A stretch of DNA of 64,000 nt, taken from the IMG/VR virus record IMGVR_UViG_2744054962_000001; one strand, written 5' to 3'. Positions 883 through 55,134 of the stretch are shown piece by piece. The notes under the pieces were generated by a model. That model searched no databases and was not told where the DNA came from. It was given only the letters and a program-made list of their open reading frames with translations. The position numbers and the translations under genes were made by a program. Positions within the stretch are counted from its first letter, which is position 1. Every line of letters starts with the position of its first letter. This stretch comes from a virus (lineage: Duplodnaviria > Heunggongvirae > Uroviricota > Caudoviricetes).

Positions 883-1404
883 TTATTCTTCGAACAATTT
901 TTCGATAGATTTTGTAGGATAGAACAAAGAACGCTCGTTGTTACCAACCAGCTGGATAAAGCCTAAACTTTTATAAAACGCCTTGGCTTTGTCATTTAAC
1001 GCCTCAACGAAAAGTCCATGAATGCCTACAGCAAGAGATGCATTGTACACAACGCGCATTGCATGTGTTACAAGCATTGAGCCAAATCCTTGACCTTGAA
1101 GGGACTTGTCCAAAGCCAGCCTACCCAAAGTAACACTTGGAACATTCCGATAAGGAACCTTCTTTTGTTTGCTTCTTGAAGGTAAGGACTCCTTTTCAAA
1201 ACAACTACCTGACAAAGTGTAATATCCTAACACTTTTGGCCTTTCTTCTTGAGTGCAAAGCACATAAGCACGAAGAATTTTTCCCTCATGCTGCCTTTTT
1301 AAGTGGTTGGCTAAAAAGGCGTTTAGTGACTCTTCGCCGCAATCAAAACCGTTTAGATCATAATCTTTCTCTCCAGAGAAAATCTCTATCGTTGTATTGC
1401 TCAC
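883..1404 (-). CDS. GNAT-family acetyltransferase, probable type II toxin (TacT/AtaT/KacT-like)
   Basis: 173 aa with GNAT-like motif QGQGFGSMLV; immediately downstream of a small RHH/DUF1778-like gene with 7-bp spacing. Confidence 0.6.
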   Translation of the reverse strand: MSNTTIEIFSGEKDYDLNGFDCGEESLNAFLANHLKRQHEGKILRAYVLCTQEERPKVLGYYTLSGSCFEKESLPSRSKQKKVPYRNVPSVTLGRLALDKSLQGQGFGSMLVTHAMRVVYNASLAVGIHGLFVEALNDKAKAFYKSLGFIQLVGNNERSLFYPTKSIEKLFEE

Positions 1405-1411
1405 GAGTAAA

Positions 1412-1720
1412 CTACTCCATGCTTTTCAGACGATCAGCAGCTCGTTTCAGCTTGTCGTTCGGTGCCGGAGGATTGCTTATAGCGTCCATAACCAGATTCC
1501 AGGATTCTTCATTCAGAACTAGTCTACGGTGTTGCTCTATAACTTTCACGGCACGTTCAGATGCACTGCTAACCATAAACTGAGTAATGCTCTGGTTAGA
1601 CATTGCGGCAGCTTCCTCGATGATGCTTTTATCGTCATCGGTTAATCTCAAATCGATGCGCTGCTTTTTTAGTGCTGACATGTATTCCTCCTGATGGCCG
1701 TGATGTAGGAAGGCCATCAA
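1412..1720 (-). CDS. Small antitoxin-like protein (TacA/DUF1778-like), partner of GNAT toxin; true start probably an internal Met
   Basis: About 90 aa, upstream of GNAT gene on the same strand; LKKQRIDLRLTDDDKSIIEEAA resembles ribbon-helix-helix antitoxins of GNAT toxins. Confidence 0.55.
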   Translation of the reverse strand: MMAFLHHGHQEEYMSALKKQRIDLRLTDDDKSIIEEAAAMSNQSITQFMVSSASERAVKVIEQHRRLVLNEESWNLVMDAISNPPAPNDKLKRAADRLKSME

Positions 1721-2668: not shown

Positions 2669-3027
2669 TGTCCATGAAAATGGGTGACCTAGCAAAGCGC
2701 AAAGAGCCTGATGCACCGGCTAAGAACACAACTCCTTTGCGCCAACCAGTCAGACCACAAGGACGCCCGACTCGTGGCAAAGAGAAAATTAAAAGCCGCA
2801 CTATGTCACTGGAAGACGAATACTTCGAGCTTCTGGAAATGATGAAGTTTATCCCTCGTTTCGAGAAGTTCACCCGCTCTGATGTGATTCGTGCTGCTAT
2901 TTTCCATCTGGCAGAGAAGTCACCGCAGGAAATCGAGGACATCGTAAAGCTGAACGAGGCGATCACAGCTGCCGATGTCACGATGCGTACCGATGAAATT
3001 AAACGCGAGTTGATGAAGAAAGGTTAA
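2668..3027 (+). CDS. Partition centromere-binding protein (ParG/ParB-like, probable RHH fold)
   Basis: 119 aa, start overlaps parA stop; basic N-terminus and short helical C-terminal domain. Confidence 0.5.
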   Translation: MSMKMGDLAKRKEPDAPAKNTTPLRQPVRPQGRPTRGKEKIKSRTMSLEDEYFELLEMMKFIPRFEKFTRSDVIRAAIFHLAEKSPQEIEDIVKLNEAITAADVTMRTDEIKRELMKKG

Positions 3028-3028
3028 T

Positions 3029-3052
3029 AATGTGGGCTGTCTAGCCCACATT
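3029..3052. terminator. Hairpin terminator after partition operon
   Basis: Inverted repeat AATGTGGGCT gtct AGCCCACATT followed by ATTTTAATT. Confidence 0.55.
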
Positions 3053-3078
3053 ATTTTAATTAAAGTGGAGTGATAATT

Positions 3079-3831
3079 ATGCATTCGTTAGTATTTGCAT
3101 TTAAAAACATACTCAAGAATGTTATAAACATACTAGGGATGTTAAATATTTTTTTGTCTGTGAGGGTGAGGAGAAAAGATATAAAAGATAAATTAAAGGA
3201 ACTTAACAAAGAAAAAGAACAATTAAAAAGCGAAGAAATTATTATTGATTTATACAAGAAAAAACTCGCATCTAGCAAGGGGAAAGCTAATGATAAAATC
3301 AAAGGAAAAATAATTCACTATATTATTGCTAGAGAGTTGGGGAATGATCCTGATAATGAAGATTTGCGACATAATCTTTTTACAAAGATAAAAGAATCAG
3401 AAGAACAGGTTGAAGTTCTGGTTCATCAAAGAGAAGTAAGTGAGCAGGCGAACAAAAAAGAAACGGTTGTCAATTTGTTTTTATTGTATGAAAAAAATAA
3501 ATTGTTTAAAGCTAAGGGGTTGGCTGTGTTTCTTATAGTTATAAACTTAATTATAGTTGCGACTCTCGATCTTCCAGCTTGGTCATTGATTATAAGTTTT
3601 TTTATTCTCTCTTTGATTATGTTGAAAGATCAGATACTTACTATTCGTGTCTCTAAAGGATATTTTGGCACAAGTGCGTATGAAGCGGTTCAATTGCTTA
3701 AATTCATCAGAGAAAATTCAGACAAATTTGACTCAGATGATAATGACGGTAGCCCACGACGGATATTGAATCCGAAGGGAACAACAAAAAAATCAGACAA
3801 CCTATTCGATAAAGGGTGGCAAAATGTTTGA
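3079..3831 (+). CDS. Predicted multi-pass membrane protein in AT-rich island, unknown function
   Basis: ATG at 3079 preceded by GGAG; hydrophobic segments at N-terminus and mid-protein separated by lysine/glutamate-rich segment; local GC far below surroundings. Confidence 0.5.
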   Translation: MHSLVFAFKNILKNVINILGMLNIFLSVRVRRKDIKDKLKELNKEKEQLKSEEIIIDLYKKKLASSKGKANDKIKGKIIHYIIARELGNDPDNEDLRHNLFTKIKESEEQVEVLVHQREVSEQANKKETVVNLFLLYEKNKLFKAKGLAVFLIVINLIIVATLDLPAWSLIISFFILSLIMLKDQILTIRVSKGYFGTSAYEAVQLLKFIRENSDKFDSDDNDGSPRRILNPKGTTKKSDNLFDKGWQNV

Positions 3832-4246
3832 CCTTGACGCCATCACTAAGTTCTTAAATCAGTGTTTTGATCTACTTTTGCTCAAGCAGCCTTTAAGAAC
3901 TGTTTTCGGAATACTGATTGGTTTCATTATTTTTGTTTTTGTTTACACGTTTAGGTTTGCGATAGCTCAAGATTTTTATGAAATAGATGGTGTGCATTAC
4001 GCTGCATGTTTCGTCATCGGTGTTTTAGTTGTTCACACAAGAACATTTTTTGACGTTATCAAGGGCACCGCAGTTGATGAAGAAATAGATAGTATGATCA
4101 GAGTTATTACGAAGCAGCCACACCTATCTAACCATCAAAAAAACATAATGATTGCTGAAATACTTCAAAAAGAAATTGCAGCCATAAGTCAAAAGAGATT
4201 GGATAAAGTTGCACAAGAAATAACGGAGAAAAAGACAACTGATTAA
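3824..4246 (+). CDS. Predicted membrane protein, unknown function, co-transcribed with preceding gene
   Basis: Start overlaps upstream stop; two hydrophobic helices (ILIGFIIFVFVYTF, ACFVIGVLVV); AT-rich. Confidence 0.5.
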   Translation: MFDLDAITKFLNQCFDLLLLKQPLRTVFGILIGFIIFVFVYTFRFAIAQDFYEIDGVHYAACFVIGVLVVHTRTFFDVIKGTAVDEEIDSMIRVITKQPHLSNHQKNIMIAEILQKEIAAISQKRLDKVAQEITEKKTTD

Positions 4247-4254
4247 TTTAATTA

Positions 4255-4316
4255 CCTGTTTCTGTATATAAATAATAAGTAACTTATTAAATATATATAC
4301 GGAAGCAGGTCTTTTA
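4255..4316. terminator. Long AT-rich hairpin, probable terminator; member of a two-copy repeat family (second copy 53417-53480)
   Basis: Arms CCTGTTTCTGTATATA and TATATACGGAAGCAGG pair with G-U wobbles, followed by TCTTTT. Confidence 0.5.
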
Positions 4317-4417
4317 AAAGACACCCACCAGAACAACTCCCTTCCGTTTCCACTTCCAAAAACTGCCACCAGTCGCTATCATCCGCTCATTGTGATAAGT
4401 AAGTAACTACCTACCAG

Positions 4418-5167
4418 GTGAGCCACATGAGCCAAATCTTTTTCGATACCATCGACAACAACCAGTACGACTTCATGACAGAGTGGAATACCGCTGTTAT
4501 GGACAAGTGGGTTGCTGAAAACATTGGTTTGTCGCGCTGTAAAGACGAGGCTGAACTCTTCGAGACGAAGTGGTTTGATTATCGCGACATGCATCCTCTC
4601 ATGGCCACCTGTCTTTTTACGGAGGCATACAAACGTCAGTACTCAAATATCATGCTGACGCACGGTCGCGAACACTTTGAAACAGCTCCGTTCACCACCG
4701 GGTTAAAACGTCTGCCTTATCAGGAGTTGTCGACTGCCAACAAAACGTCGCTATGGAAAGCACGCCAGTTTGCGGATCGCTATTGCTGCTCATACGACTA
4801 CTTTATCTCCACCGTTCTTTCCGCAGCTGCACGACGGCTGTGGGACAAGCTGCCGCGCCCACAGCATTTGTGGCAGCCAGAACTGATTGAGATATTTGAA
4901 GAGAAATTAGCCAGACGCGCAACAACCCGTCTGGATGACTCTCTGGTTAGCTTTAAGCATATGGGAGACATGCAGTTCAACCCGATTCAGGAAAGCTATT
5001 TTGAGTGGATTCTGGAGCGTTTGCGCACCATCCCTCGCAGTAAGCGCATACGCGCAATTTTCTCCGCTATCTGGCTAATGGAAATCGTTCCAGAGCGCCT
5101 TATTTCCGCCCACTTTCCAGAAGAACTGGAAGAAGCACGGCGGTTTATTGATCCCCTATCTAATTAA
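4418..5167 (+). CDS. Hypothetical protein
   Basis: 249-aa ORF upstream of helicase gene; no recognisable motif. Confidence 0.45.
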   Translation: MSHMSQIFFDTIDNNQYDFMTEWNTAVMDKWVAENIGLSRCKDEAELFETKWFDYRDMHPLMATCLFTEAYKRQYSNIMLTHGREHFETAPFTTGLKRLPYQELSTANKTSLWKARQFADRYCCSYDYFISTVLSAAARRLWDKLPRPQHLWQPELIEIFEEKLARRATTRLDDSLVSFKHMGDMQFNPIQESYFEWILERLRTIPRSKRIRAIFSAIWLMEIVPERLISAHFPEELEEARRFIDPLSN

Positions 5168-5210: not shown

Positions 5211-6551
5211 ATGACCGAACTTTGCCATACAGGACGCGGGCTGTCCGAAGAGTTTGATGAAGATTTCCAGAACAGACTGACGGCATATTTTTGTCGTGAT
5301 CACGAGTTTCTTACTCGTGCGGGAGATCTGGTTGTGCCTAGCCAATTTGCCAATGCGGCCAATGCCATATTGGTTAATATGGTTTCGGGCTATTACCGTA
5401 TGTACAAGAGCGCGCCCTCTTCATCTGCAATTCTGGATATGCTTAAGCGTGCGAAACGCGATAAGACTATCCGTGAGGAACTATTCGCCGATGTTGTTGC
5501 TGCGTTTAAGCGCATCCTTGCAGAAAAATTGTCCGATACCTCGTACATGGTTGACCAGGTATCAACCTTCGCAAAAAGCGTAGCGTTTGATGATGCTCTG
5601 ATTAAGGCTGCTGAACTGAAAGAGAAAGGCGACTTTCAGGGGGCGATGGCAATCATGGCCAAGGTTCAGCAGATTGGATCGAACGAAGCGACCGGAATCT
5701 ATGACTACTACACCTCCGCAAGTGAGCGATTGAAAGCGCGTGAATATGAGGCTTCAGAGGAGTATGTACCAAACAGTATTACAACTGGACTCCCTCTTCT
5801 CGATAGGTTGCTGTACCAAAAAGGCTGGGCAAAGCGCGAAATGGTGCTCTTCATGGGGTTCGCTAAATCCGGTAAATCGACCGCAATGGGTGAGTTTTCC
5901 ATAAACGCAACGCTTGCTGGCTACAATGTTCTGTATCTCTCGCTGGAGGTTCACACCACCATTTTATCCGACCGTTTTGATGCAAGATTGTCGGAGACGG
6001 AAATGTCCAAGCTGGTGGAACGGCGCGATGAGGTTCATCGTAAGTTGGCAGAGTTGGGAGCCACGAAGGGGATTGGTAGTTTGTGGGTTGTTGAGCGTCC
6101 GTCAGGAAGTATGTCACCGGCAGACCTGGATCGTATGCTTAACAGCATGAAAGCCAATGGCATGGTGCCTGACATGGTTGTTGTCGACTACGCAGATTTG
6201 ATGCGTGCCAGTTATGACCTTCGTGATGATCGCGCCAACATTCGTAGTATCTACACCGATTTACGTGCTCTTTATGACAAGCATAACGTTGCTGGTATCA
6301 CGGCGTCGCAAACAAACCGTGAAGGTGGCGCGTCAGAAGTTGCCACAATGATGCACGCTGCCGACAACATCGAAAAAGTACGTATTGCTGACCTGGTAAT
6401 AACGATCAACAAAACCGAAGAAGAAGAAGCGAAAGGAGAGGCTCGTCTCTACTTTGCTGGTTCGCGTAACCAGCAGGGAGGGATCAGCATTCGCGTTAAA
6501 CAAAACCTCGAACAAATGCGCTTCATTGAGCGAATCTTAGACGTTACCTAA
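5211..6551 (+). CDS. Replicative DNA helicase (DnaB-like / RecA-fold)
   Basis: Walker A GFAKSGKST, Walker B-like VVVDYADLM, 446 aa, immediately upstream of primase. Confidence 0.7.
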   Translation: MTELCHTGRGLSEEFDEDFQNRLTAYFCRDHEFLTRAGDLVVPSQFANAANAILVNMVSGYYRMYKSAPSSSAILDMLKRAKRDKTIREELFADVVAAFKRILAEKLSDTSYMVDQVSTFAKSVAFDDALIKAAELKEKGDFQGAMAIMAKVQQIGSNEATGIYDYYTSASERLKAREYEASEEYVPNSITTGLPLLDRLLYQKGWAKREMVLFMGFAKSGKSTAMGEFSINATLAGYNVLYLSLEVHTTILSDRFDARLSETEMSKLVERRDEVHRKLAELGATKGIGSLWVVERPSGSMSPADLDRMLNSMKANGMVPDMVVVDYADLMRASYDLRDDRANIRSIYTDLRALYDKHNVAGITASQTNREGGASEVATMMHAADNIEKVRIADLVITINKTEEEEAKGEARLYFAGSRNQQGGISIRVKQNLEQMRFIERILDVT

Positions 6552-6557
6552 AAAATA

Positions 6558-6580
6558 AGCGTGGAGAACACCTCCACGCT
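6558..6580. terminator. Hairpin after helicase gene
   Basis: AGCGTGGAG aacac CTCCACGCT inverted repeat. Confidence 0.4.
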
Positions 6581-6632
6581 TGATTCATTGGTGAAACAAC
6601 TTTTCTTTTGCCAAACCACAAAAGAAAAACAC

Positions 6633-7814
6633 ATGAGCCTTTATGTTATATCAACATTTAGGTTGGTCACAATATTGCCTGTTAAAAGTGGAATTATCGT
6701 GAGCGAGCTGAAAGAGCTAATTACCGAATTAGATTTTGAACAATGGTTGGATACTGAAGGTATCGTTTATCGACGTGGAGGCGTGAGTACTCGCGGTCGT
6801 GAAGTGAATATCAAGGAGTGTCCGGTATGCGGCAGCTCCAACTGGAAGGTATATTTCAATCTGACCAGTGGCGTCGGTAAATGCTTCGCTGGTGATCATC
6901 CCGAAGAGATTCAGTTCAATAAGCTGGTCTTCCTCAAGCACTACAGCGGTAAATCACGACGACAGTTCGAGGAATATGTGCAGAACGCTCTTCTTTCCCA
7001 GGGGTGGGCACCAAAGAAAGAAGAGATAGTGCTTGCAAGCACAGTCGAGTTAGAGGGACCAGTTGCACTCCCTCGTCATTACGATCTTCCTATAGATGGC
7101 CATCTTCCAGACTATCTGGTTGAACGAAATATATCGCCTGAAATGGCAAAGTATTTTGACCTACGATACTGCGTCGAAGGCAAGCACGCTTATGTAGATC
7201 CGTATACAGATCAGGTTAAAGGACAGATTTTCGATATGCGAATACTGATACCGGTTTACGATCTGGATGGGGTAATGAAGACATTTCAAGGACGAGACAT
7301 TACCGGTACAGCAGAACGCCGCTACCTCTTCCCTATGCAGCTGCCGGCGTCGGGTAAGTTTCTCTACAACGGCCACAACGCAGTCGGGAAACAAACAGTC
7401 GTTGTGTGTGAAGGGGCATTTGACGTAATGGGCGTGAAGCGAGCCATCTTCGACGAAAAGACGCTGAGGGATTATGTAGAGCCAATTGGCACGTTCGGGA
7501 TGCACTTGTCCGGAAATATGAATGAGGACGCTGAAGATCAGTTGGGCGCGTTCCTGACGCTCAAGGCGCGTGGATTACGCAACGTCATCATGATGTGGGA
7601 TAGCGAGAAGCAAGCGATCCGCAACACCATGTCGGCGGCCAAACGCCTCACCAGCATCGGACTAAATGTCAAAGTGGCCTGTCTGGGCGAAGAAGGTCTC
7701 GACCCCGGCGACGCGACGCCAGAGCAGATCCTCAAAGCCTATTATCGTGCCAAGCCTTACTCCAAACAGCTGGAGTTAAAATGCAAAGTGCTCGGTATCA
7801 AGTCACTCGTGTAG
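6633..7814 (+). CDS. DNA primase (DnaG-like zinc-binding domain plus TOPRIM)
   Basis: CPVCGSS...CFAGDH zinc-ribbon-like motif and TOPRIM-like VVVCEGAFDVMG; ATG at 6633 preceded by AAAAGAAAAACAC motif; ORF track start 6561 overlaps the upstream hairpin. Confidence 0.65.
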   Translation: MSLYVISTFRLVTILPVKSGIIVSELKELITELDFEQWLDTEGIVYRRGGVSTRGREVNIKECPVCGSSNWKVYFNLTSGVGKCFAGDHPEEIQFNKLVFLKHYSGKSRRQFEEYVQNALLSQGWAPKKEEIVLASTVELEGPVALPRHYDLPIDGHLPDYLVERNISPEMAKYFDLRYCVEGKHAYVDPYTDQVKGQIFDMRILIPVYDLDGVMKTFQGRDITGTAERRYLFPMQLPASGKFLYNGHNAVGKQTVVVCEGAFDVMGVKRAIFDEKTLRDYVEPIGTFGMHLSGNMNEDAEDQLGAFLTLKARGLRNVIMMWDSEKQAIRNTMSAAKRLTSIGLNVKVACLGEEGLDPGDATPEQILKAYYRAKPYSKQLELKCKVLGIKSLV

Positions 7815-7815
7815 T

Positions 7816-8913
7816 TTAAGTTGTGGGAGACAGACGGTTCAGGACAAACGCTGCGATATTATTTAGTGCTATATTTAGCAAACTTGCATCATATGTTTGG
7901 TCGTTATCCTTAGGTTTAAAATTGCTGATACTGACTGTCTCACTGTGCTCATTTTCATAGAAACGTTTACTGCTTGAATCTAGGCGTTTGAGGACGTAAA
8001 TTTGCCCAAATTCAATCCACTCACCTTCACCATTGAGTCCGCTCCCTGTTTTGACTGAGATGAAGTACTTTGCCAGCTTGGTTGTAATGCAGTCTTCATT
8101 TTTTTCTATGCAAACCTTAATGCCGGCGGCTTTCAAACTACGATAAATGCTGTTTGGATATGCCCCACTATAGATTTCGCTGCTTTCAATGATAATGACG
8201 TCGTATTCTTCCTTTGGCTCAATAGATAAAGCTTCAGGCTCCAAATCATCCTTGTGAAAAATAAATCCTAAAAGACGCTCAAGTTCATCTGTTAATTTGA
8301 ACATGGGGTTCGCTTGGATCTCGCCAGCCCTGTCTTCGTAGACGAGCCCCGAGGTTATGAGCTTATTTAGCGATCTCAGAGCCATTCCACTTTTTTGTGA
8401 TGTGAGGCTAACTTGGGCTAATACAGTTGATTTATAGCCTTTTATTGGCGAGCTTGTTGTGATGTAAAGTTTGCGCGCATATTCAATATCAAAGCAGGTT
8501 AACCCACTCAGTATGTGGATAAAAAATAGTTTTTCATCGTCGTTAAGGCTGCTGCGGGCTAGGCTTACCGTCAAGCGAATGTAGTATTCTGTTTTCTTGT
8601 CTTCATCATCAAGCACGAGCTTTTTGACTAACGCCGAAAAGTGTTCTCTTGAGATATCGACCTCATCGTCGCAAATTTCACCAATGCCCATAATGTAACG
8701 GTTGAATCGATCACGACAAGTCGTCGCATTTATCTCTGAGAACAACGTGAACATTTTTTCCGCTGCCTCAATATGAGGTCCAACAAGCGGTATAGATTTG
8801 GCAAACGCCAAACCAGTTTCTTTCAATACCTTCCTGTGTTGCATCACGTTTTTGGACAACGTTGTCATAGACCTAAGCCTTGTGTGTTTAACGTATGAGT
8901 TAAGTGAAATCAT
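7816..8913 (-). CDS. Hypothetical protein, orphan minus-strand gene within replication cluster
   Basis: 365-aa ORF on opposite strand to both neighbours, lower GC than flanks; no recognisable catalytic motif. Confidence 0.5.
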   Translation of the reverse strand: MISLNSYVKHTRLRSMTTLSKNVMQHRKVLKETGLAFAKSIPLVGPHIEAAEKMFTLFSEINATTCRDRFNRYIMGIGEICDDEVDISREHFSALVKKLVLDDEDKKTEYYIRLTVSLARSSLNDDEKLFFIHILSGLTCFDIEYARKLYITTSSPIKGYKSTVLAQVSLTSQKSGMALRSLNKLITSGLVYEDRAGEIQANPMFKLTDELERLLGFIFHKDDLEPEALSIEPKEEYDVIIIESSEIYSGAYPNSIYRSLKAAGIKVCIEKNEDCITTKLAKYFISVKTGSGLNGEGEWIEFGQIYVLKRLDSSSKRFYENEHSETVSISNFKPKDNDQTYDASLLNIALNNIAAFVLNRLSPTT

Positions 8914-9051
8914 ATAGAAGTGACCTGACAGCTACAACTGGACAAGATTAAGAGCATTTTTTATAAACGAAAATAAACGCCTACATTGATAAGTAGATAC
9001 ATACTTATATTTCTGTAAGAATATGCTCGACGAAGGAATTGAGGAACCTTT

Positions 9052-31752: not shown

Positions 31753-31814
31753 TCTCTTGAAAATATATAAGTGCTTACTTATTATTTTCACATAACAACC
31801 ACATAGGAAAACAC

Positions 31815-33697: not shown

Positions 33698-33736
33698 GTT
33701 TACAGTAAAATTTATATAAGTTGGTATCTACCTATC

Positions 33737-52740: not shown

Positions 52741-52801
52741 TGATTGTCAGACATAAAATCAAATGCAAAAATAGGTAATCACTTACCTATCGAGAAAGAA
52801 G

Positions 52802-54395: not shown

Positions 54396-54989
54396 ATGAC
54401 GACGAAGACACCAGCCCGATCGCAAGCAAAAACTCGCAAAAAAGCCAAAAACAAAAATTCTCCCCGCACCAATCCAACAACGCCTGTCGTAGAGTTCAAT
54501 CCCCAGCTCAAAACCGTGAAAATCTTTAGTGATGGCTCTTGCCTTAAAAATCCGGGTGGCCCGGGCGGTTACGGTATCGTTCTCCAGTATCGTGGTGAGG
54601 AACGCGAGTTCTCAGATGGTTTTCATAGCACCACCAATAACCGCATGGAGATGATGGGCGCACTTATCGGGCTGGAGCGTTTGAAATATCCATGCAACGT
54701 TATTTTGTACTCTGATAGCCAGTATCTGAAAAACGGCATGACACAGTGGATGAAATGGTGGAAACGTAATGGATGGATGACTTCTGATAAAAAACCGGTA
54801 AAGAATGTTGATCTGTGGAAACGTCTGGATGAGGCCGCAAGTCGACATAATGTTCGCTGGAAGTGGGTTAAAGGTCACGCCGGGCATCGTGAAAATGAAA
54901 TATGTGATCGACTCGCGAAGATCGCAGCTTTTTCAGCAGCAGATATGCCTCACAAGAAAGATATTGGTTTTGTTTATAACAAGTGGTAA
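54396..54989 (+). CDS. rnhA: Ribonuclease HI with basic N-terminal extension
   Basis: [49 protein letters not shown] match RNase HI; SD CAGGAG upstream of ATG 54396. Confidence 0.85.
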
Positions 54990-55134
54990 GTAAGTGTTTA
55001 CCTATCATTTTAAATCATGTATCTTATCAGCGTCAGGATGACAATGTGTCGGTAAGACACAGTTCCAGGATGGAACGAGAAAGGCGGCTGGCAATCGCCA
55101 GCCGCAACTCTTTCTGACACTGGATGGAGTCCAC

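What the first reader, a model, noticed from the sequence alone, without database searches (positions are those of the whole stretch)
7816..8913. Orphan minus-strand 365-aa gene embedded in the + strand replication gene cluster
This is the only minus-strand gene between primase and ligase. It has lower GC than its neighbours and its own upstream intergenic region (8914-9051) carrying an ATAAGTA...TACTTAT palindrome. No motif is recognisable. Strand-switched cargo genes in phage replication modules are frequently moron-type defence or anti-defence genes.
Basis: partly seen in the sequence, partly recalled or inferred. Interest (0 to 1): 0.5.

Follow-up and report, generated by a model that had tools for sequence, protein, structure and literature searches.

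The report
Mobile Abi-alpha-like cargo gene in phage-plasmid
The lone reverse-strand gene between primase and ligase of this SSU5/pHCM2-type phage-plasmid is an optional, self-promoted cargo gene in an insertion hotspot, distantly related to the Abi-alpha abortive-infection family and so probably an unrecognised anti-phage gene, though nobody has tested it.

Summary
The ORF is real. It is the only minus-strand gene between primase and ligase, it has lower GC, and it is under purifying selection (dN/dS 0.1-0.2).

Two details need correcting:
- The true start is Met16 (window 8868; 350 aa).
- The ATAAGTA-N6-TACTTAT palindrome belongs to the backbone. It is present in relatives with an empty site and occurs 11 times in the window.

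The window is an E. coli SSU5/pHCM2-like phage-plasmid. The site after primase is a cargo hotspot with four observed states: empty, this gene, a TPR gene, or an unrelated 388-aa gene.

The same cassette, promoter plus CDS, also occurs in lambdoid prophages, other plasmids and chromosomal islands. In most of the non-SSU5 contexts examined it lies near R-M, AbiU-like or OLD-family ATPase genes.

The protein itself hits no Pfam, PADLOC or PDB entry. Its family (phrog_22938; 91 clusters at 50% identity) links at profile level to Pfam Abi_alpha. It has a MarR-like winged helix and an extra C-terminal alpha/beta domain.

Best reading: a divergent single-gene abortive-infection or exclusion module. 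Cargo status is near certain. The defence function is inferred (about 0.5-0.6). A replication accessory role is refuted by its absence from most relatives.

The parts
7816..8868 (-). It is 100% identical in protein to the pHCM2 orthologue WP_000209842.
   Evidence: dN/dS is 0.11-0.18. It matches phrog_22938 at E = 6.6e-218.
8869..8913 (-). It is probably 5' UTR and promoter, not coding.
   Evidence: Homologues have indels here and start at the Met16 equivalent.
8909..8937 (-). Putative sigma-70-type promoter of the cassette: -35 TTGTAG (8937-8932), a 17-nt spacer, and -10 TATGAT (8914-8909).
   Evidence: GTTGTAGC and TATATGATTTC are invariant in 7 homologous loci from phage-plasmid, prophage, plasmid and chromosomal contexts. 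The site is below the threshold of the consensus scan, so it is inferred.
8878..8881 (-). Shine-Dalgarno-like AAGG, 10 nt upstream of ATG 8868.
   Evidence: The CAAGGC block is invariant in the 7-locus alignment.
8269..8733 (-). Conserved core (residues about 46-200): a helical bundle plus winged helix. This region is remotely homologous to nearly the whole Pfam Abi_alpha domain.
   Evidence: Members of the family hit PF14337 in one register. The consensus of the distant clade scores 32.9 bits against a gathering score of 29, covering profile positions 2-175 of 196. hhalign of the window clade against the distant clade gives 99.8% probability.
8581..8613 (-). Family signature LDDEDKKTEYY (residues 86-96). 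K92 and Y96 are invariant and D87 nearly invariant across 68 divergent members.
8284..8496 (-). MarR/SlyA-like winged helix-turn-helix (residues about 125-195).
7819..8217 (-). Variable C-terminal alpha/beta domain (residues about 218-350). It is the most divergent part between alleles.
7815..8977 (.). Cargo segment relative to an empty site, about 1.16 kb. It runs from directly after the primase stop codon to about 10 nt before the backbone palindrome.
   Evidence: Alignments with Cyrano (empty site), SSU5 and pJN2-26.
7311..10610 (.). Block of about 3.3 kb that is 97-100% identical to Salmonella Typhi pHCM2, set in a backbone that is only about 80% identical. This is the recombination tract that carries the gene.
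   Evidence: Sliding identity profile.
8989..9008 (.). ATAAGTA-N6-TACTTAT palindrome. It is a flanking backbone element (a promoter or operator motif of the + strand genes), not part of the cassette.

Best explanation
The gene is an optional single-gene cargo cassette (its own promoter, a short leader, and a 350-aa CDS). It sits in an insertion hotspot immediately downstream of the primase gene of an SSU5/pHCM2-type phage-plasmid.

The protein belongs to a family of moderate size (phrog_22938). Its conserved core, a helical bundle plus a MarR-like winged helix carrying a DDExxKxxxY signature, is a remote homologue of the Abi_alpha (Abi-alpha) abortive-infection domain. That core is fused to a variable C-terminal alpha/beta domain.

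Proposed mechanism (inferred, not shown):
- The lysogen expresses the protein from the cassette promoter, transcribed against the replication operon.
- The protein protects the host and the phage-plasmid from unrelated phages by abortive infection or exclusion.
- The conserved Abi_alpha-like core acts as the effector or nucleic-acid-binding part.
- The divergent C-terminal domain sets which invader is recognised.

Shown here: the gene is real and under purifying selection. It is dispensable for replication. It is exchanged by recombination. It moves between unrelated genetic contexts. It lies next to known defence genes. It is linked to Abi_alpha at profile level.
For: 1. Cargo status and hotspot.
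   - Cyrano/pLF82 and an E. hormaechei plasmid have about 76-81 bp between primase and the next gene.
   - pB20 has a 381-aa TPR gene there and pJN2-26 an unrelated 388-aa gene, both on the minus strand.
   - In an evenly spaced sample of the matches, the 24 rows whose coordinates span the whole query read as 16 same-length, 6 TPR-type, 1 this gene and 1 other. The site was inspected directly in four relatives.
2. Mobility.
   - The gene lies in a 3.3-kb tract 97-100% identical to pHCM2 within a backbone about 80% identical.
   - Only the gene plus about 95 nt upstream is shared with a Lelliottia chromosome, a lambdoid prophage and a Cedecea plasmid.
3. Functional constraint. dN/dS is 0.11-0.18.
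4. Homology.
   - The profile search found 91 cluster representatives, and all 68 aligned members hit phrog_22938.
   - Members give sub-threshold PF14337 hits in a single register.
   - The distant-clade consensus scores 32.9 bits (E = 8.5e-8) against the 29-bit gathering score.
   - The window clade and the distant clade align at hhalign probability 99.8%, E = 4.4e-29.
   - Abi-alpha itself is a prophage-borne single-gene Abi (PMC6356687).
5. Neighbourhoods of homologues.
   - AbiU-like AIPR protein (PADLOC 6.6e-25) and a NACHT protein.
   - OLD-family ATPase-Toprim (2.8e-41) and RelE/ParE.
   - DNA methylase with a HATPase_c_3/HEF_HK protein and a receiver protein.
   - XhoI R-M and DUF3800.
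   - TerB_N, BrxC-like ATPase and DEAD helicase, plus FRG, on an island next to an integrase gene.
   - DNA methylase with DUF4928 in a prophage, and an N6_N4 methyltransferase.
   - A position after the tail-spike gene of a prophage.
6. Structure. The AF2 model is confident (pLDDT 88.9, pTM 0.83) and shows two domains.
Against: - There are no functional data for any member of the family.
- The window protein and its close-clade consensus give no PF14337 hit, even at E <= 10. The link is transitive.
- PADLOC finds nothing for the protein or for 68 relatives.
- DefenseFinder reportedly finds no defence system in pHCM2-like phage-plasmids (10.1101/2025.09.12.675607).
- The mechanism of Abi-alpha itself is unknown (premature lysis only; PMC6356687). 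Homology therefore does not supply a mechanism.
- The divergence of the C-terminal part reflects old alleles shuffled by recombination (dS 0.6-1.9 with low dN/dS), not demonstrable positive selection.
- Being near defence genes is only circumstantial evidence, and it comes from about 10 contexts.
Confidence: 0.55

Rival explanations
1. It is a MarR-like transcription factor carried as cargo. It would reprogramme host or phage-plasmid gene expression (lysogenic conversion, or control of the neighbouring replication operon) rather than kill or protect cells.
For: - The gene faces the backbone promoter/operator motif in the shared 183-bp intergenic region.
- Short inverted repeats overlap its own -10 box in several alleles.
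Against: - No Pfam MarR or HTH family hit for the protein or its relatives.
- At 350 aa with two extra domains, it is unlike the 140-150-aa MarR dimers.
- The gene is inserted in unrelated contexts that share no common target operon.
- The backbone palindrome exists without the gene.
Confidence: 0.15
2. It is an anti-defence or inter-element competition factor that helps the phage-plasmid establish or persist. For example, it might neutralise a host immune system or exclude competing plasmids, without abortive infection.
For: - It is a strand-switched, low-GC accessory gene in a mobile element.
- Alleles are variable and exchanged by recombination.
- Phage-plasmids are known to carry anti-defence genes (10.1101/2025.09.12.675607).
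Against: - Close homologues sit in chromosomal islands and non-phage plasmids beside R-M and Abi-type genes. That is typical of defence genes rather than anti-defence genes.
- The only family link is to an abortive-infection protein.
- The protein is large for an anti-defence inhibitor (own knowledge).
Confidence: 0.15
3. It is a toxin-like addiction or stability factor that promotes maintenance of the phage-plasmid.
For: Some homologues lie next to ParE/RelE toxin-antitoxin and partition genes on plasmids.
Against: - It is a single gene with no conserved small partner in the window or in most contexts.
- It also occurs on chromosomes and in integrated prophages, where plasmid addiction is irrelevant.
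Confidence: 0.07
4. It is a replication accessory factor of the helicase-primase-ligase module.
For: Its position between primase and ligase.
Against: - It is absent from most SSU5-like relatives, which keep helicase, primase and ligase.
- It is replaced by unrelated genes at the same site.
- It is found outside any replication module.
Confidence: 0.02

Closest known systems
Abi-alpha (Abi_alpha, Pfam PF14337, formerly DUF4393; EF2833 of Enterococcus faecalis V583 prophage 6; PMC6356687)
   Same: - It is a single-gene module carried by temperate elements and found in defence islands.
- The family's conserved core aligns to positions 2-175 of the 196-position Abi_alpha profile. The distant-clade consensus scores 32.9 bits against a gathering score of 29.
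- That clade is 99.8% hhalign-related to the window clade.
   Different: - The window protein itself does not score against PF14337.
- It is 350 aa against 272 aa, with an additional C-terminal alpha/beta domain of about 135 aa.
- The closest relatives of the window protein are all enterobacterial; the hosts of the wider family were not determined. Abi-alpha was described mostly in prophages of Gram-positive bacteria.
- No phenotype is known here.
- It is not detected by PADLOC or, reportedly, by DefenseFinder (10.1101/2025.09.12.675607).
PHROG family phrog_22938 (unknown function), including SSU5_041 and the pHCM2 orthologue WP_000209842
   Same: It is a full-length member, E = 6.6e-218. It is identical in protein to the pHCM2 copy and 57% identical to the SSU5 copy at the same site.
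   Different: Nothing differs. The family has no annotated function, so membership says nothing about what the protein does.
MarR/SlyA winged-helix regulators
   Same: The central region of about 70 residues has the winged helix-turn-helix fold and gives a weak profile match.
   Different: There is no MarR dimerisation scaffold and no Pfam MarR hit. The winged helix is embedded between two other domains.
Phage morons (autonomous promoter-gene units inserted between conserved phage genes, as in lambdoid phages)
   Same: - It is inserted between conserved genes, on the opposite strand, with lower GC.
- It has its own conserved promoter-like element.
- It is present or absent among close relatives.
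   Different: - No intrinsic terminator was detected. The stop codon lies 1 nt from the primase stop codon.
- It lies in the replication module of a phage-plasmid rather than in the late region.

Membership tests
Abi_alpha (Pfam PF14337) | The protein itself scores at or above the Pfam gathering score (29 bits). | tested here: not met
   There is no PF14337 hit for the window protein or its close-clade consensus, even at E <= 10. The best single family member scores 27.3 bits.
Abi_alpha (Pfam PF14337) | Profile-level homology of the protein's family to the Abi_alpha domain. | tested here: met
   - Distant-clade consensus: 32.9 bits, E = 8.5e-8, profile positions 2-175 of 196.
- A second distant-clade consensus scores 30.0 bits and the whole-family consensus 24.7 bits.
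- Eight of 68 members, plus tail hits, match in the same register.
- Window clade against distant clade: hhalign 99.8%, E = 4.4e-29.
Abi_alpha (Pfam PF14337) | Abortive-infection phenotype: infected cells die, infective centres drop, and lysis is premature (PMC6356687). | not testable with these tools
   This needs phage challenge experiments.
Abi_alpha (Pfam PF14337) | A single gene carried on prophages or mobile elements, or located in defence islands. | tested here: met
Abi_alpha (Pfam PF14337) | Same domain architecture as EF2833 (272 aa). | tested here: inconclusive
   The window protein has an extra C-terminal domain of about 135 aa. No EF2833 sequence or structure was available for comparison.
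phrog_22938 | A significant full-length match to the family profile. | tested here: met
   E = 6.6e-218 over profile positions 1-336 of 336.
MarR/SlyA regulators | Winged helix-turn-helix fold. | tested here: met
MarR/SlyA regulators | MarR family sequence signature and the compact architecture of a dimer of about 150 aa. | tested here: not met
   There is no Pfam MarR hit. The protein is 350 aa with three regions.
Phage moron / accessory cargo | Present or absent at a fixed site among otherwise syntenic relatives. | tested here: met
Phage moron / accessory cargo | Its own promoter and terminator. | tested here: inconclusive
   A conserved -35/-10-like pair with a 17-nt spacer is present in all contexts, but it falls below the scan threshold, and no terminator was found.
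Class II aaRS anticodon-binding domain (HGTP_anticodon) for the C-terminal domain | Significant similarity in sequence or fold. | tested here: inconclusive
- ThrRS at E = 0.78.
- Pfam HGTP_anticodon at E = 0.06-0.13 for family consensus sequences.
- All are below accepted thresholds.
Conserved replication accessory factor | Present in all relatives that share the helicase-primase-ligase module. | tested here: not met
   It is absent from Cyrano/pLF82, E. hormaechei pFJMB80003_1, pB20, pJN2-26 and most of the 756 matching plasmids.

The most novel reading that the evidence does not exclude
phrog_22938 would be an unrecognised two-domain branch of the Abi-alpha superfamily that current defence-finding tools miss. 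Its variable C-terminal domain, which resembles an aaRS anticodon-binding domain, would bind a nucleic acid (for example a tRNA) or a phage protein as the trigger. This would give the first mechanistic handle on Abi-alpha-type immunity. It would also show that the slot after primase in SSU5/pHCM2 phage-plasmids, including the S. Typhi plasmid pHCM2, is a dedicated exchange site for defence genes.
Probability: 0.12. Interest if true: 0.7.

Novelty: new variant of a known kind. Interest (0 to 1): 0.45.

Why it matters
- SSU5/pHCM2-type phage-plasmids are common in S. Typhi, Shigella sonnei, E. coli and Klebsiella. pHCM2 has long been called cryptic.
- A DefenseFinder screen reports no defence system in pHCM2-like elements (10.1101/2025.09.12.675607). 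If this gene is an Abi-alpha-like immunity gene, that report is a false negative.
- It would also give pHCM2 carriage a selectable function.
- It would extend the poorly understood Abi-alpha family with a new architecture.
- It would define a recombination-driven cargo slot useful for mining further defence genes, such as the TPR gene of pB20 and the 388-aa gene of pJN2-26.
- The family comes with a confident structural model and a sharply conserved DDExxKxxxY site that can be mutated directly.

Tried and rejected
- Single-sequence searches gave nothing useful: Pfam (only DUF6086 at E = 0.1), NCBIfam, PADLOC and PDB phmmer.
- PADLOC on 68 relatives gave only scattered single hits at E > 1e-3.
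- Foldseek against PDB and BFVD found nothing at E <= 1e-3 (LptE, PelC, HisRS-like; two unnamed viral proteins).
- The AFDB50 library was unavailable.
- The search for homologous proteins with the 68-sequence profile returned only close relatives because of the candidate cap.
- The search for related loci failed with the divergent alignments A3 and A6. With the close alignment it returned only 3 loci.
- The sigma-70 consensus scan found no promoter in the 8869-9051 region. The promoter proposal rests on conservation instead.
- The pJN2-26 cargo protein was tested as a distant homologue and rejected (BLASTP E = 2.0).
- A replication accessory role was rejected on presence/absence.
- Positive selection on the C-terminal domain was considered and rejected. 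dN/dS is about 0.12 there, and the divergence is old synonymous-saturated variation with an intragenic recombination breakpoint.
- The 12-bp palindrome at the start codon was judged compatible with chance.
- The paper searches run here found no functional study of the pHCM2 or SSU5 orthologue.
Full report
**1. Observation**

The ORF listing confirms an ORF at 7816-8913 on the minus strand, 365 aa from the first ATG. It is flanked by + strand genes:
- helicase, 5211-6551
- primase, 6561-7814 (Pfam DNAG_N/Toprim hits just under the gathering cut-offs; annotated as DNA primase in close relatives)
- two ORFs, 9052-9846 and 9850-10392
- ligase, 10427-11749

The RefSeq annotation of an identical plasmid shows the same layout, with this gene the only one on the opposite strand in the module.

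GC content is 41.5%. That compares with 48.4% (primase), 54.7% and 50.6% (the next two genes), 47.9% (ligase) and 45.4% (whole window). GC3 is 44% against 53-60%. The palindrome ATAAGTA-N6-TACTTAT is at 8989-9008.

Two corrections follow.

(a) Start codon.
- All twelve 90%-identity cluster representatives and RefSeq begin at the equivalent of Met16.
- The CDS is therefore 7816-8868, 350 aa.

(b) The palindrome belongs to the backbone.
- It is conserved, together with the following TTTCTGTAAGAATA, in phage Cyrano, whose site is empty.
- It is also conserved in Klebsiella phage pJN2-26, which carries a different gene there.
- With up to 2 mismatches the motif occurs 11 times in the window, against 0.21 expected.
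- All copies fall in gaps between ORFs, 15-150 nt upstream of + strand ORFs.

**2. What the element is**

The window is 100% identical over the tested 4 kb to E. coli plasmids pDETEC87 and an FDAARGOS_1287 plasmid. It is related to Salmonella phage SSU5, S. Typhi pHCM2 and E. coli phage-plasmid Cyrano/pLF82. It is therefore an SSU5-type phage-plasmid.

**3. Cargo status and hotspot**

In the plasmid collection, 756 records match the 4-kb region. Only 58 contain it end to end. tblastn finds the protein in 138 records.

Among 5,426 complete E. coli genomes the cassette is in 10. All copies are on plasmids and all are at least 99.7% identical.

The slot directly after the primase stop codon has several states:
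- Empty: 76 bp in Cyrano and 81 bp in E. hormaechei pFJMB80003_1.
- A 381-aa TPR protein on the minus strand plus a 137-aa ORF, in pB20 and relatives.
- An unrelated 388-aa minus-strand protein in pJN2-26.
- A 345-bp gap followed by different + strand genes in pLR-46_1.
- The present family in the window, pHCM2, SSU5, and Citrobacter and K. oxytoca plasmids.

One search lists matches taken at even steps down the ranking. In the 24 rows whose coordinates span the whole query, the matched length reads as 16 same-length, 6 TPR-type, 1 this family and 1 other. The site itself was inspected in only four relatives.

Relative to the empty site, the insert is about 7815-8977.

**4. How it got here**

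Against pHCM2 the window is about 80% identical across helicase, the 5' part of primase and the 3' part of ligase. It is 97-100% identical from about 7311 to 10610. The gene therefore lies in a 3.3-kb recombination tract.

Against the Citrobacter and K. oxytoca alleles:
- The flanks and the first 110 codons or so are 91-100% identical (dS 0.11).
- The rest of the gene has dS of 0.6-1.9.
- dN/dS stays at 0.11-0.18 throughout.

These are old, functional alleles shuffled by recombination, with a breakpoint inside the gene. This is not evidence of positive selection.

**5. An autonomous unit**

tblastx shows that only this gene is shared between the window and three other contexts: a Lelliottia chromosome, a lambdoid prophage and a Cedecea plasmid.

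About 95 nt upstream of the ATG are conserved in all of these contexts. The conserved elements are:
- GTTGTAGC (-35-like TTGTAG, 8937-8932)
- a 17-nt spacer
- TATGAT (8914-8909)
- CAAGGC (Shine-Dalgarno AAGG, 8881-8878)
- ATG at 8868

The consensus scan does not call this promoter, and no terminator is seen. The promoter is an inference from conservation.

**6. The protein**

Searches with the single sequence gave the following:
- Pfam, NCBIfam and PDB phmmer return only chance-level matches or none, and PADLOC returns nothing.
- PHROGs gives phrog_22938, function unknown, E = 6.6e-218.

A profile of the close family, searched against 1.84 billion cluster representatives, found 91 proteins. 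Most are 340-390 aa and collinear with the query. All 68 aligned members hit only phrog_22938.

Evidence linking the family to Pfam Abi_alpha (PF14337):
- Eight of 68 members give hits to PF14337 at E <= 0.01; the members and weaker-scoring relatives examined one by one score below the gathering cut-off.
- In the members examined one by one, the hits fall in the same register: member residues about 75-200 against profile positions about 22-150 of 196.
- Consensus sequences from hmmemit sharpen the signal. The distant clade scores 32.9 bits (E = 8.5e-8) and 30.0 bits, above the 29-bit gathering score, covering profile positions 2-175.
- The whole-family consensus scores 24.7 bits.
- The window protein and its close-clade consensus score nothing.
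- hhalign of the window clade (A2) against the distant clade (A8) gives 99.8% probability, E = 4.4e-29, over 248 columns.

The window protein is therefore a remote, transitive relative of Abi_alpha. It is not a member by Pfam's own criterion.

Other features of the protein:
- The family profile hits a SlyA-like/MarR regulator (PDB 4mnu, E = 8.2e-5) over positions 126-214.
- AF2 with the 68-sequence alignment gives pLDDT 88.9 and pTM 0.83.
- The model has a flexible N-terminus, a helical bundle, a winged helix (residues about 125-195) and a C-terminal alpha/beta domain (about 218-350).
- Foldseek against PDB and BFVD gives nothing at E <= 1e-3.
- K92 and Y96 are invariant and D87 nearly so across 68 members, defining a DDExxKxxxY signature.

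**7. Neighbourhoods of homologues outside SSU5 elements**

- K. pneumoniae IncFIA/IncR plasmids: a 40%-identical homologue in an apparent two-gene operon with a 'DNA-binding protein'. It lies next to an AIPR protein that matches PADLOC AbiU (6.6e-25) and a NACHT protein.
- E. coli p67_100: next to RelE/ParE and an OLD-family ATPase-Toprim (2.8e-41).
- Lelliottia chromosome: beside a DNA methylase, a HATPase_c_3/HEF_HK protein and a Response_reg_2 protein.
- A metagenomic contig: XhoI R-M, a second methyltransferase, DUF3800, a Ser/Thr kinase and an ORC-CDC6-like protein.
- An island next to an integrase gene: TerB_N, a BrxC/BrxD-like ATPase and a DEAD helicase, plus FRG and a large AAA_11/12 helicase.
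- A lambdoid prophage: next to a DNA methylase and DUF4928.
- A methyltransferase pair.
- A prophage end, after the tail-spike gene.
- A Rep3 plasmid near ParE/Phd and umuDC.
- One uninformative contig.

Truncated copies also exist (Buttiauxella; a Citrobacter plasmid; P0103). This fits a dispensable gene.

**8. Interpretation**

Three points are established:
- The gene is real, constrained and dispensable for replication.
- It is moved by recombination.
- It is an autonomous cassette in a cargo hotspot.

The gene is probably a single-gene defence module of the Abi-alpha type. Three observations support this:
- the profile-level homology;
- the neighbourhoods rich in defence genes;
- the presence of homologues in chromosomal islands, which argues against an anti-defence role.

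The proposed division of labour is speculation: a conserved core as effector or nucleic-acid binder, and a variable C-terminal domain as specificity determinant. The mechanism of Abi-alpha itself is unknown beyond premature lysis (PMC6356687).

Against the defence reading, PADLOC finds nothing. A DefenseFinder survey reports no defence systems in pHCM2-like phage-plasmids (10.1101/2025.09.12.675607). That means either this gene is missed by current models or it is not a defence gene.

Rivals are a cargo transcription factor, an anti-defence or competition factor, and an addiction factor. A replication factor is effectively excluded.

**9. Verdict**

The start codon and the ownership of the palindrome are corrected.
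- 'Defence or anti-defence' is plausible, leaning towards defence, but untested.
- Novelty: a new variant of a known kind, namely an Abi_alpha-like core with an added domain, below the detection thresholds of current tools.
- Interest is moderate.

Noticed in passing
window 4268-4294, 4395-4414, 8989-9008, 12571-12590, 31763-31782, 33716-33735, 38536-38555, 47933-47952, 52771-52790, 54986-55005: The palindromic motif ATAAGTA-N6-TAC(T/C)TAT occurs 11 times with up to 2 mismatches, against 0.21 expected. Every copy lies in a gap between ORFs, 15-150 nt upstream of a + strand ORF or operon. The copy at 8989 is conserved in Cyrano, SSU5 and pJN2-26. It looks like a genome-wide promoter or operator element of SSU5-type phage-plasmids, possibly the binding site of a phage regulator.
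   Followed up: partly
window 7311-10610: A tract of about 3.3 kb (3' end of primase, the cargo gene, two ORFs, 5' end of ligase) is 97-100% identical to S. Typhi pHCM2, while the adjacent backbone is only about 80% identical. This indicates recent recombination between E. coli-type and Salmonella-type phage-plasmids.
   Followed up: partly
window 8855-8866: A perfect 12-bp palindrome, GACAACGTTGTC, covers codons 1-5 of the cargo gene (MTTLS). It is largely conserved in homologues. About 0.3 such palindromes are expected by chance in the region, so its significance is unclear.
   Followed up: no
L007 2596-4387 (E. coli pB20) and L003 7254-8420 (Klebsiella phage pJN2-26): Alternative cargo sits at the same post-primase slot. 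pB20 has a 381-aa TPR protein on the minus strand (only a weak, short PtuA-like PADLOC hit) plus a 137-aa ORF. pJN2-26 has an unrelated 388-aa minus-strand protein with no family hit. Both are candidates for further unknown accessory or defence functions.
   Followed up: partly
L005 6297-7978 (K. pneumoniae plasmid NZ_CP009116): The 40%-identical subfamily on Klebsiella plasmids is preceded by an overlapping 206-aa gene annotated 'DNA-binding protein'. That subfamily may therefore work as a two-gene system, unlike the solitary gene in the window.
   Followed up: no
window 3001-4500: This is the lowest-GC stretch of the first 20 kb (30-37%). It covers the + strand ORFs 3070-3831 and 3824-4246. 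The gene in the corresponding position is annotated as DUF2971-containing in pDETEC87 and SSU5, although Pfam gave no hit here. PADLOC hits were only weak. It may be another accessory insert.
   Followed up: no
window 883-1720 (- strand ORFs 883-1404 and 1412-1720): Two minus-strand ORFs have the position and size of the gene pair annotated in Cyrano as a KacT-type acetyltransferase toxin and its antitoxin. They were not aligned or verified here.
   Followed up: no
window 13339-13586: A tRNA cluster (Asn-GTT, Thr-TGT, Ser-TGA) lies downstream of the ligase region, as in Cyrano and SSU5.
   Followed up: no
L022 8001-8534 (Buttiauxella gaviniae SSU5-like contig); plasmid NZ_CP114804; protein P0103: There are truncated or partial copies of the cargo gene, some at the same slot. 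This indicates occasional decay of the gene.
   Followed up: no
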